In this document: piece by piece, positions 6,023 through 9,000 of the stretch
Layout: every line of letters starts with the position of its first letter
How positions within the stretch are numbered: the stretch's first letter is position 1
NCBI RefSeq assembly: GCF_030013595.1
Contig: NZ_CP122768.1
DNA from: Escherichia coli
GTDB taxonomy: Bacteria; Pseudomonadota; Gammaproteobacteria; Enterobacterales; Enterobacteriaceae
Direction: 5' to 3' (one strand)
DNA length: 64,000 bases
Made by a program: the position numbers

Positions 6023-9000
6023 TAATGGCGTTAACAATGCGAGCGTGCCTGATGCGCTACGCTTATCAGGCCTACGAGACTCCTGCAATATATTGAATTT
6101 GCATGTTTTTGTAGGCCGGATCAGACGTTAACGCCGCATCCGGCAAGAAGCTATAAGAAAAGGGCGGAGATCATCTTCGCCCTTTTTATTTCTGCAATCC
6201 GCAATTATCATCCCGCAGATCTATACTTTTTGAGTCAACACGTAACGCTTTACAGGTGATTATCATGGGGCTTTTTGATGAAGTTGTCGGTGCCTTTCTG
6301 AAAGGCGATGCGGGGAAATATCAGGCCATTTTGAGCTGGGTTGAGGAGCAGGGCGGCATTCAGGTGCTGCTGGAAAAACTGCAAAGTGGCGGCTTAGGGG
6401 CCATTCTCTCAACCTGGCTGAGTAATCAACAGGGCAATCAATCGGTTAGCGGCGAGCAACTGGAATCGGCGCTCGGCACAAATGCGGTGTCCGATCTCGG
6501 GCAAAAACTGGGCGTGGATACCAGTACGGCTTCCAGTTTACTGGCAGAACAATTGCCGAAGATTATTGATGCACTCTCACCGCAAGGTGAAGTGTCACCA
6601 CAAGCCAATAACGATCTGCTTTCCGCAGGCATGGAACTGCTGAAAGGGAAACTCTTCCGCTAAGCAAATGGGGAGCACGCAACGCGCGTTGCATCCCCCT
6701 TTTCCCCAGGGTGTTGTACTGATTTTTGAGCGGAATCGCGTTAGCATGGGTCAGGAACCAATCTACCTGGGGAACTCATGGCTATCAAACTCATTGCTAT
6801 CGATATGGATGGCACCCTTCTGCTGCCCGATCACACCATTTCACCCGCCGTTAAAAATGCGATTGCCGCAGCTCGCGCCCGTGGCGTGAATGTCGTGCTA
6901 ACGACGGGTCGCCCTTATGCAGGTGTTCACAATTACCTGAAAGAGCTGCATATGGAACAGCCGGGCGACTACTGCATTACTTATAACGGCGCGCTGGTAC
7001 AGAAGGCCGCCGATGGTAGCACCGTGGCGCAAACCGCTCTGAGCTATGACGACTACCGTTTCCTGGAAAAACTCTCCCGCGAAGTCGGTTCTCATTTCCA
7101 CGCGCTGGACCGCACCACGCTGTACACCGCCAATCGTGATATCAGCTACTACACGGTGCATGAATCTTTCGTTGCCACCATTCCGCTGGTGTTCTGCGAA
7201 GCGGAGAAAATGGACCCCAATACCCAGTTCCTGAAAGTGATGATGATTGATGAACCCGCCATCCTCGACCAGGCTATCGCGCGTATTCCGCAGGAAGTGA
7301 AAGAGAAATATACCGTGCTGAAAAGTGCGCCGTATTTCCTCGAAATCCTCGATAAACGCGTTAACAAGGGTACGGGTGTGAAATCACTGGCCGACGTGTT
7401 AGGTATTAAACCGGAAGAAATCATGGCGATTGGCGATCAGGAAAACGACATCGCAATGATTGAATATGCAGGTGTTGGTGTGGCAATGGATAACGCTATT
7501 CCTTCGGTGAAAGAAGTGGCGAACTTTGTCACCAAATCCAACCTTGAAGATGGCGTGGCATTTGCTATTGAGAAGTATGTGCTGAATTAATCAGTGGGCG
7601 GGCAAACGGCATGAATGCGTTTGCCCGCAGCGATTAACAATTTCTGGTCGTGCATAAAATCAGGAACTGGAGTGGTGACGTTACTATATCCAGCGTAAGA
7701 GTGATTGGCAGCAGCGCGTTAACGAGGCCGCGCGGGACGCCATCTGTTGCTTTGTACTCATAAAATCCCACCGTAAAGGGTTGATGGAAAACCATCACGT
7801 TTGAGTAATCCGCTTTTTTATTTTTCTGGTGGATTGAGCCTTTCAAACCGTCCAGCATCCATGTACAACGCCGGGTATCACAAATAAAACCATATTGTGT
7901 TGCCAGTGCCTTATCTTCTTCGTTGTTCCAGTCGTAATAGAGCGTAATAGCACCAGAGAATTTCTTATTACTGCTGCTTAAAATAAATTTCGCGTTATCA
8001 GAAACGGTGATTCTTTCACCATGAATTGCCGGATCGTTCAGCATTTTAACCACCTCACCGCCGCCGGTGGTCAACAGATAGTCCAACGATTCACCAACAA
8101 AAACATAGCCTTTCGTACCGTTACTATCTTCTGCCAGCGATAAACCCTTAATCGTGTCTGACCGCCATTGCTCGGCATGTGGACGGCTTGCAGTATTGGA
8201 AACCAATCCCCAGGTGATACATCCGGTCAACGCAAATGCCAAAGGACACAAACCGGCATCCTTAAAAAATCCCTTAAAATTCAACTTCATGATTAATCCT
8301 TTAAACGAGTAGCTAAGCCGTTGAAAGCATACTCTTCTTTCCCTCCTGTTTAGCGCCTGTTCTCCCTTTTCAGATTTCTGCCCGACGCATGTCATTTTTT
8401 ATGTATTGTTCTTTTTGTGATCTAAATTGTAGTACAACAATATAACTTTGTACTACATTACGCACACGGCAAACGCGAACGTCATCACGCTAGTACTACA
8501 AAGTTGCCGCGTTATGCATCGATCGGGGTAAAGTAGAGAAGAACATACAGAGCACAAGGACTCTCCATGACTCTCAATAAAACCGATCGCATCGTTATTA
8601 CGCTGGGTAAACAGATCGTTCACGGCAAATACGTACCAGGCTCGCCGCTTCCGGCTGAGGCAGAACTCTGTGAGGAGTTTGCAACCTCGCGCAACATCAT
8701 CCGTGAGGTGTTCCGTTCGTTGATGGCGAAACGGCTGATTGAAATGAAACGTTATCGCGGCGCGTTTGTGGCACCGCGTAACCAGTGGAATTACCTCGAC
8801 ACTGACGTACTGCAATGGGTGCTGGAAAACGACTACGACCCACGGCTTATCAGTGCCATGAGCGAAGTGCGAAATCTGGTGGAACCGGCGATTGCCCGTT
8901 GGGCAGCAGAGCGCGCGACTTCCAGCGATCTGGCGCAGATTGAATCGGCGCTGAACGAGATGATTGCCAACAATCAGGACCGCGAAGCGTTTAACGAAGC

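What the first reader, a model, noticed from the sequence alone, without database searches (positions are those of the whole stretch)
8427..8503. Three-fold repeated GTA(C/G)TACA motif in the dgoR promoter
The yidX-dgoR intergenic region carries three closely spaced copies of a short palindromic motif, consistent with autoregulation of the dgo operon by its GntR-family repressor. This is ordinary but clearly visible.
Basis: partly seen in the sequence, partly recalled or inferred. Interest (0 to 1): 0.3.

Follow-up and report, generated by a model that had tools for sequence, protein, structure and literature searches.

The report
Known DgoR operator sites before dgoR
The three repeated motifs are the binding sites of the galactonate repressor DgoR in front of its own operon in E. 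coli; two are proven by published experiments and the third was already predicted by comparative genomics, so the finding is correct but ordinary.

Summary
GTA(C/G)TACA occurs at 8429-8436, 8450-8457 and 8493-8500, inside three 11-bp near-palindromes: M1 TTGTAGTACAA (8427-8437), M2 TTGTACTACAT (8448-8458) and M3 TAGTACTACAA (8491-8501). All lie in the yidX-dgoR intergenic region, upstream of dgoRKADT.

The window's DgoR is 100% identical to K-12 DgoR. M1 and M2 are the published operators IR1 and IR2; the published IR1 22-mer equals window 8422-8443. Sort-Seq with affinity mass spectrometry placed the DgoR-dependent repressor site at -140 to -110 from the ATG, which is 8427-8457. These two sites overlap a class II CRP site and the -10 TACATT.

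M3 is not among the experimentally described sites. It was, however, listed as a predicted DgoR site for b4479 in the supplement of Suvorova et al. 2015.

Across 80 Enterobacterales species all three sites keep their positions:
- M1 to M2 is 21 bp in 80/80.
- M2 to M3 is 42-44 bp.
- M3 has at most 2 mismatches in 78/80 but is never a perfect consensus.

M3 lies about +26 to +36 from the inferred main start site and 2 bp upstream of the -35 of a second, basal promoter. It is probably a weak auxiliary operator.

Verdict: already known, low interest. The one open point is the untested role of M3.

The parts
8427..8437 (.). M1 = published operator IR1, TTGTAGTACAA, a perfect 5+1+5 palindrome. It overlaps the right half of the CRP site and the -35 region of the inducible promoter P1.
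   Evidence: The published IR1 22-mer equals 8422-8443. It lies inside the Sort-Seq repressor region -140 to -110. It is perfect in 74 of 80 species.
8448..8458 (.). M2 = published operator IR2, TTGTACTACAT, with one mismatch. It overlaps the P1 -10 hexamer TACATT (8454-8459).
   Evidence: 'IR2 has one mismatch'. The -10 TACATT is named in PMC6003448. It lies 21 bp from M1 in 80 of 80 species.
8491..8501 (.). M3, the third copy, TAGTACTACAA (K-12 allele TGGTACTACAA). It is a predicted DgoR site that has not been validated experimentally. It lies in the P1 leader, 2 bp upstream of the P2 -35.
   Evidence: Listed as a DgoR site of b4479 in PMC4494728 S1 File. It forms a conserved island. It has at most 2 mismatches in 78 of 80 species, lies 42-44 bp from M2, and is never perfect.
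8416..8431 (+). Class II CRP site, TGTGA-N6-TTGTA. Its right half is shared with M1. It contains a GATC at 8419-8422.
   Evidence: PMC6003448 places a CRP site with TGTGA at -160 to -140 and calls it class II. Columns 8413-8422 are about 90-100% conserved. The extent of the right half is my inference.
8454..8459 (+). -10 hexamer TACATT of the galactonate-inducible, CRP-dependent promoter P1. The inferred start site is near 8465-8466.
   Evidence: PMC6003448 gives 'wild type, TACATT' between -120 and -100. The start site is inferred from the -10 position and from the CRP centre at 8423.5 plus 41.5. It was not mapped here.
8497..8537 (+). Second RNAP site (P2), active under repressing conditions. 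Probable -35 is TTGCCG at 8504-8509 and probable -10 is TAAAGT at 8529-8534.
   Evidence: The RNAP site at -70 to -30 is in PMC6003448. The hexamer assignment is my inference. GGTAAAGTAG (8527-8536) is about 90-100% conserved across 80 species.
8567..9256 (+). dgoR, encoding a GntR/FadR-subfamily repressor of 229 aa.
   Evidence: Pfam GntR + FCD. 100% identical to K-12 DgoR. PDB 7c7e at E=3.7e-149. RefSeq annotation.
9253..13289 (+). dgoK (9253-10131), dgoA (10115-10732), dgoD (10729-11877) and dgoT (ORF 11952-13289), the regulated structural genes.
   Evidence: NCBIfam and Pfam hits: DGOK, 2-dehydro-3-deoxy-6-phosphogalactonate aldolase, galactonate dehydratase and D-galactonate transporter.
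7634..8290 (-). yidX, the divergent upstream neighbour (218 aa).
   Evidence: K-12 annotation of yidX, alignment and RefSeq 'YidX family protein'.

Best explanation
The three motif copies are the DgoR-binding palindromes (consensus TTGTA-S-TACAA) of the autoregulated dgoRKADT promoter region of E. coli. They have the FadR-subfamily TNGT-N3-ACNA pattern.

Shown by published experiments:
- DgoR dimers bind M1 (IR1) and M2 (IR2) when D-galactonate is absent.
- D-galactonate binds DgoR and releases it from the DNA.
- CRP-cAMP activates the promoter by a class II mechanism.

Shown directly by the sequence: M1 overlaps the right half of the CRP site and the -35 region of the inducible promoter P1. 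M2 overlaps its -10 (TACATT). Bound repressor would therefore exclude both CRP and RNA polymerase.

Inferred: M3 is a third, weaker operator.
- Its centre is 43 bp (about four helical turns) downstream of M2.
- It lies at about +26 to +36 in the P1 leader and ends 2 bp upstream of the -35 of the basal promoter P2.
- It most likely lets DgoR dampen P2, giving negative feedback on the basal DgoR level. It may also help block P1 transcripts or stabilise occupancy of IR1 and IR2.
- In every species examined it departs from the perfect consensus.
For: Sequence identity with the published sites:
- IR1 22-mer equals 8422-8443.
- The repressor footprint -140 to -110 equals 8427-8457. DgoR was enriched by affinity mass spectrometry, and the effect was lost in the dgoR deletion strain and in galactonate.
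- The window's DgoR is 100% identical to K-12 DgoR.

All three sites are listed as DgoR sites of b4479 in the Suvorova 2015 S1 File.

Phylogenetic footprint in 80 Enterobacterales species:
- The three sites are the only 11-mers with at most 2 mismatches anywhere in the upstream regions.
- M1 to M2 is 21 bp in 80 of 80. M2 to M3 is 43 bp in 71, 42 in 6 and 44 in 3.
- M3 is a conserved island between poorly conserved flanks.
- Its centre base flips between C and G, as expected for the non-contacted centre of the palindrome.

The motif cluster is far above chance.
Against: For M1 and M2 there is none.

For M3:
- The Sort-Seq text reports no repressor signal at -76 to -66. It describes the adjacent -70 to -30 region as an RNAP site active in glucose.
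- M3 is never a perfect site.
- DgoR is described as a dimer, so looping between M3 and IR1/IR2 has no demonstrated basis.
- I could not read Singh et al. 2019 or the Sort-Seq supplement. M3 may have been tested there.
Confidence: 0.9

Rival explanations
1. Only M1 and M2 are DgoR operators. M3 is conserved for another reason, such as an upstream or -35-proximal element of promoter P2 or a feature of the P1 leader. Its likeness to the DgoR motif has no functional consequence.
For: Experimental papers describe two inverted repeats as necessary and sufficient for binding in vitro. The Sort-Seq text names no repressor site at -76 to -66. M3 abuts the conserved P2 -35 TTG. M3 is never a consensus site.
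Against: The conserved positions of M3 are exactly the motif positions: T1, G3, T4, A5, C9, A10 and A11 are each kept in at least 76 of 80 species. The centre base flips C/G as in M1 versus M2. The spacing to M2 is held at 42-44 bp. No other 11-mer with at most 2 mismatches occurs in 80 upstream regions. No Rfam family matches the leader.
Confidence: 0.35
2. The motifs are bound mainly by another FadR-subfamily regulator that shares the TNGT-N3-ACNA core (for example LldR, PdhR, ExuR or UxuR) rather than by DgoR.
For: Suvorova 2015 notes that the T(G/T)GT/AC(A/C)A boxes and the 3-nt spacing are common to several FadR-subfamily regulators.
Against: DNA affinity chromatography on this DNA enriched DgoR. 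The repression signal vanished in the dgoR deletion strain. Purified DgoR shifts the promoter and D-galactonate releases it. The motif is confined to the dgoR upstream region within the window.
Confidence: 0.03
3. The three copies are a chance cluster of a short AT-rich word.
For: 1 of 100 shuffles reached 6 matches of the 8-mer. Hits with 2 mismatches are at the chance level across the window.
Against: Three sites with at most 1 mismatch lie within 75 bp. The estimated probability is about 1e-6. They hold the same positions in 78-80 of 80 species.
Confidence: 0.01

Closest known systems
E. coli K-12 dgo operator IR1/IR2 (Singh et al. 2019 J Bacteriol 201:e00281-18, as summarised in PMC11705089 and PMC12288454; Belliveau et al. 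2018, PMC6003448)
   Same: It is the same locus, the same repressor protein (100% identical) and the same IR1 sequence. IR2 differs only outside the core. The overlap with the CRP-dependent promoter is the same.
   Different: Nothing differs for M1 and M2. The window strain differs from K-12 at 7 substituted positions and one single-base indel in the 290-bp intergenic region. One of the substitutions is position 2 of M3 (A versus G at 8492).
RegPrecise-type comparative-genomics DgoR regulon (Suvorova, Korostelev and Gelfand 2015, PMC4494728, S1 File)
   Same: It lists three sites upstream of b4479, including CACGCTGGTACTACAAAGTTG, which is M3.
   Different: It is a prediction only. It does not analyse position, phasing or the consistently sub-consensus nature of M3.
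LldR operators O1/O2 at lldPRD (FadR-subfamily regulator with an auxiliary operator downstream of the start site; recalled from Aguilera et al. 2008, not checked here)
   Same: A FadR-subfamily sugar- or organic-acid repressor with palindromic TNGT-N3-ACNA sites, one of them downstream of the transcription start.
   Different: LldR has two widely separated sites and a proposed loop. Here two adjacent sites sit on the promoter, with a third 43 bp away. No oligomerisation of DgoR beyond the dimer has been reported.
NanR operator (three GGTATA repeats; cryo-EM, cited in PMC11705089)
   Same: A GntR/FadR regulator of a sugar-acid operon that uses three closely spaced sites.
   Different: NanR uses direct hexamer repeats bound cooperatively. 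The DgoR sites are separate 11-bp palindromes, each fit for one dimer.

Membership tests
DgoR operator (dgo cis-acting element) | Sequence identity with the experimentally defined IR1 and IR2 | tested here: met
   The published IR1 22-mer equals window 8422-8443. M2 has one mismatch, as described for IR2. The Sort-Seq region -140 to -110 equals 8427-8457. This does not apply to M3.
DgoR operator (dgo cis-acting element) | FadR-subfamily palindrome with GT and AC boxes 3 nt apart (TNGT-N3-ACNA) | tested here: met
   All three copies fit. The motif definition is in PMC4494728.
DgoR operator (dgo cis-acting element) | Located upstream of dgoR, with the cognate repressor encoded next to it | tested here: met
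   The sites lie at -140, -119 and -76 from the dgoR ATG. DgoR is 100% identical to K-12 DgoR.
DgoR operator (dgo cis-acting element) | Conserved at orthologous loci | tested here: met
   80 species were compared. M1 is perfect in 74. M2 has at most 2 mismatches in 80. M3 has at most 2 mismatches in 78. Each is a conserved island relative to its flanks.
DgoR operator (dgo cis-acting element) | Direct binding of DgoR, released by D-galactonate | not testable with these tools
   Published for fragments carrying IR1 and IR2. I found no published test of M3 alone.
GntR/FadR-subfamily repressor (for the gene at 8567-9256) | N-terminal GntR winged helix-turn-helix plus C-terminal FCD domain | tested here: met
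   Pfam PF00392 (52.9 bits) and PF07729 (96.5 bits). PDB 7c7e over the full length at E=3.7e-149.
Class II CRP-dependent promoter | CRP site centred near -41.5 from the start site and overlapping the -35 | tested here: inconclusive
   TGTGA is at 8416-8420, so the site centre is at 8423.5. The -10 TACATT is at 8454-8459, which gives a start near 8465 and fits -41.5. The start site was not mapped here. The class II assignment comes from PMC6003448.

The most novel reading that the evidence does not exclude
The published two-operator model of dgo regulation may be incomplete. M3 would then be a functional third DgoR operator held at sub-consensus strength by selection. A perfect site occurs in 0 of 80 species. 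Position 2 is T whenever position 8 is not A, and is non-T whenever position 8 is A. On a rough tree the switch between these two states happened several times. Bound at M3, DgoR would feed back on the basal promoter P2, and possibly block P1 transcripts. This would set the resting repressor level and so the induction threshold for galactonate.
Probability: 0.5. Interest if true: 0.3.

Novelty: already known. Interest (0 to 1): 0.12.

Why it matters
The finding confirms that a tool-less reading can pick out a real operator array, but it adds nothing to the established picture of dgo regulation. The one small open point is the third site, which is conserved, in helical phase with the others and always imperfect. 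If it tunes basal DgoR expression, it would refine quantitative models of this promoter, which serves as a gold standard in Sort-Seq and Reg-Seq work. It would also bear on galactonate use, a trait under strong selection in the gut, where dgoR mutations recur (PMC9509342).

Tried and rejected
- The consensus promoter and terminator scan of 8200-8700 found nothing. The known promoters here are too far from consensus for its thresholds, so this says nothing about function.
- An Rfam scan of 8250-8650 gave only a meaningless snoRNA hit at E=0.86. No known RNA element explains the conservation of M3.
- Singh et al. 2019 (PMC6351737) is not held, and the Sort-Seq supplement is not held. I could not check whether M3 was mutated or footprinted there.
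- A literature search for 'DgoR' with 'IR3' found nothing. Searching for the M3 sequence as text found no relevant paper.
- I looked for a fourth full site 21 bp upstream of M1. Only a TTGT half-site is conserved there, and the 11-mer has at least 5 mismatches. I rejected it as an operator and noted it in passing.
- There are no DgoR-like sites elsewhere in the operon, for example before dgoT. Hits with 2 mismatches across the window are at the chance level (12 observed versus 10.4 expected).

Full report
**What is in the sequence.**
The window is an E. coli chromosome segment. It is colinear with RefSeq records whose coordinates equal those of the window.
- GTAGTACA at 8429-8436
- GTACTACA at 8450-8457
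- GTACTACA at 8493-8500

Extended to 11 bp, they are:
- M1, TTGTAGTACAA, 8427-8437, a perfect 5+1+5 palindrome
- M2, TTGTACTACAT, 8448-8458
- M3, TAGTACTACAA, 8491-8501

The 8-mer gives 6 matches on both strands in the 64-kb window, against 1.29 +/- 1.40 in shuffles. Five of the six fall on these three sites. The three 11-mers are the only matches with at most 1 mismatch in the window, while hits with 2 mismatches are at the chance level. Given one site, the chance of two more within 150 bp is about 1e-6.

**The genes.**
The downstream genes are dgoR, dgoK, dgoA, dgoD and dgoT. DgoR carries Pfam GntR and FCD domains. DgoK matches the DGOK family, and the remaining three match the 2-dehydro-3-deoxy-6-phosphogalactonate aldolase, galactonate dehydratase and D-galactonate transporter families. 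The DgoR protein is 100% identical to K-12 DgoR and matches PDB 7c7e over its full length. The intergenic region is 98% identical to K-12. Published K-12 experiments therefore transfer directly.

**Comparison with published data for M1 and M2.**
[quoted passage not shown] IR1 is perfect and IR2 has one mismatch. The published IR1 oligonucleotide, CTAAATTGTAGTACAACAATAT, is window 8422-8443. D-galactonate releases DgoR from the DNA.

Sort-Seq gave an independent result (PMC6003448):
- A repressor signature at -140 to -110 from the ATG, which is 8427-8457 and so covers M1 and M2.
- Enrichment of DgoR on that DNA by affinity mass spectrometry.
- Loss of the signature in a dgoR deletion strain and in galactonate.
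- A class II CRP site with TGTGA at -160 to -140 (TGTGA is at 8416-8420).
- A -10 hexamer TACATT (8454-8459).
- A second RNAP site at -70 to -30 (8497-8537) that is active in glucose.

M1 therefore overlaps the right half of the CRP site and the -35 region, and M2 overlaps the -10. This is repression by steric exclusion.

**The third copy.**
The experimental papers I could read mention only two repeats. Their EMSA probe is a 55-mer holding IR1 and IR2. M3 is still not new. The S1 File of Suvorova et al. 2015 lists three DgoR sites for b4479, and the third is CACGCTGGTACTACAAAGTTG, the K-12 allele of M3.

**Conservation test.**
I fetched dgoR loci from 80 Enterobacterales species and compared the upstream regions.
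- All three sites sit at the same positions in nearly every species, about -140, -119 and -76.
- M1 is perfect in 74 of 80.
- M2 is exactly 21 bp downstream of M1 in 80 of 80. It has one mismatch in 72, which fits its second role as the -10.
- M3 is 43 bp from M2 in 71 species, 42 in 6 and 44 in 3. It has at most 2 mismatches in 78 of 80.
- No other 11-mer with at most 2 mismatches occurs anywhere else in these upstream regions.
- Column conservation shows M3 (8488-8503) as an island between poorly conserved flanks. The other islands are the CRP site with M1, M2 with the -10, the P2 -10 GGTAAAGTAG, and the ribosome-binding site.
- The centre base of M3 flips between C and G among species, as expected for the non-contacted centre of the palindrome.

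These results favour M3 being a real protein-binding site of the same specificity.

**A detail about M3.**
It is never a perfect consensus (0 of 80). Species with T at position 2 have G or T at position 8, in 61 cases. Species with A at position 8 have A or G at position 2, in 16 cases. On a rough neighbour-joining tree of dgoR-dgoK, parsimony needs about 6 to 9 changes between these states. The pattern is therefore not a single inherited event. The tree is crude, however, and this is only suggestive of selection for intermediate affinity.

Within E. coli, the window's TAG allele is the minority. The 41-nt stretch around M3 matches exactly in 162 of 5032 records, and most records differ at one base. 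K-12 has TGG.

**Mechanism.**
Shown by published experiments: DgoR dimers on M1 and M2 block CRP and RNAP at P1, galactonate relieves the block, and CRP activates.

Inferred: M3 lies at about +26 to +36 from the P1 start. That start is itself inferred to be near 8465 from the -10 position and the CRP centre. M3 ends 2 bp before the probable P2 -35, TTGCCG at 8504-8509. A dimer bound there would cover roughly 8486-8506, and so would hinder RNAP at P2.

Most likely this gives weak negative feedback on the basal DgoR level. A contribution to blocking P1 transcripts is also possible. Looping to IR1 or IR2 is less likely, because the distances are short (43-64 bp) and DgoR is reported only as a dimer.

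Against any role for M3, the Sort-Seq text names no repressor site at -76 to -66. I could not read Singh et al. 2019 or the Sort-Seq supplement.

**Verdict.**
The system is already known experimentally for two sites and computationally for the third. Interest is low. The only open question is whether the conserved, always imperfect M3 is a functional auxiliary operator.

Noticed in passing
window 8419-8422: A GATC lies inside the left half of the CRP site (TGTGATCT). Its A is at -147 from the dgoR ATG, the same figure given for the undermethylated GATC upstream of Salmonella dgoR. That site is linked to Dam-dependent ON/OFF heterogeneity (PMC7708049; bioRxiv 10.64898/2026.01.27.702048). The columns are about 90-100% conserved across 80 species.
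   Followed up: partly
window 8406-8409: A TTGT half-site begins exactly 21 bp upstream of the start of M1, the same spacing as M1 to M2. It is conserved: T1 in 71, T2 in 74, G3 in 80 and T4 in 74 of 80 species. The other half is the T-run flanking the CRP site, so the 11-mer has at least 5 mismatches. It could be a vestigial or half operator, or part of one of the overlapping RNAP sites reported by Sort-Seq.
   Followed up: partly
window 8492 and 8498 (M3 positions 2 and 8), loci L002-L081: M3 is never a perfect consensus in 80 species. Positions 2 and 8 co-vary: (T,G) 42, (T,T) 19, (A,A) 13, (G,A) 3 and (T,A) 0. A rough tree needs about 6-9 parsimony changes.
   Followed up: partly
window 8492: The window strain has A where K-12 has G (TAGTACTACAA versus TGGTACTACAA). 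The exact 41-nt window allele is found in only 162 of 5032 E. coli records.
   Followed up: partly
window 1153-1163: An isolated GAGTACTACAA, which contains the 8-mer GTACTACA, is the only copy outside the dgoR upstream region. It is probably chance. I did not look at its gene context.
   Followed up: no
window 8200-8700 versus E. coli genomes: About 420 of 5424 matching genomes do not cover at least 80% of this 501-bp stretch in one place, and 11 matches lie on plasmids. This may reflect insertions or rearrangements in the yidX-dgoR region.
   Followed up: no
L057: A contig labelled Chryseobacterium sp. 18061 carries a dgoR 90% identical to that of E. coli, with Enterobacterales-type M1 and M2 sites. 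It is probably a mislabelled or contaminated assembly. It is also one of the two loci lacking a recognisable M3.
   Followed up: no
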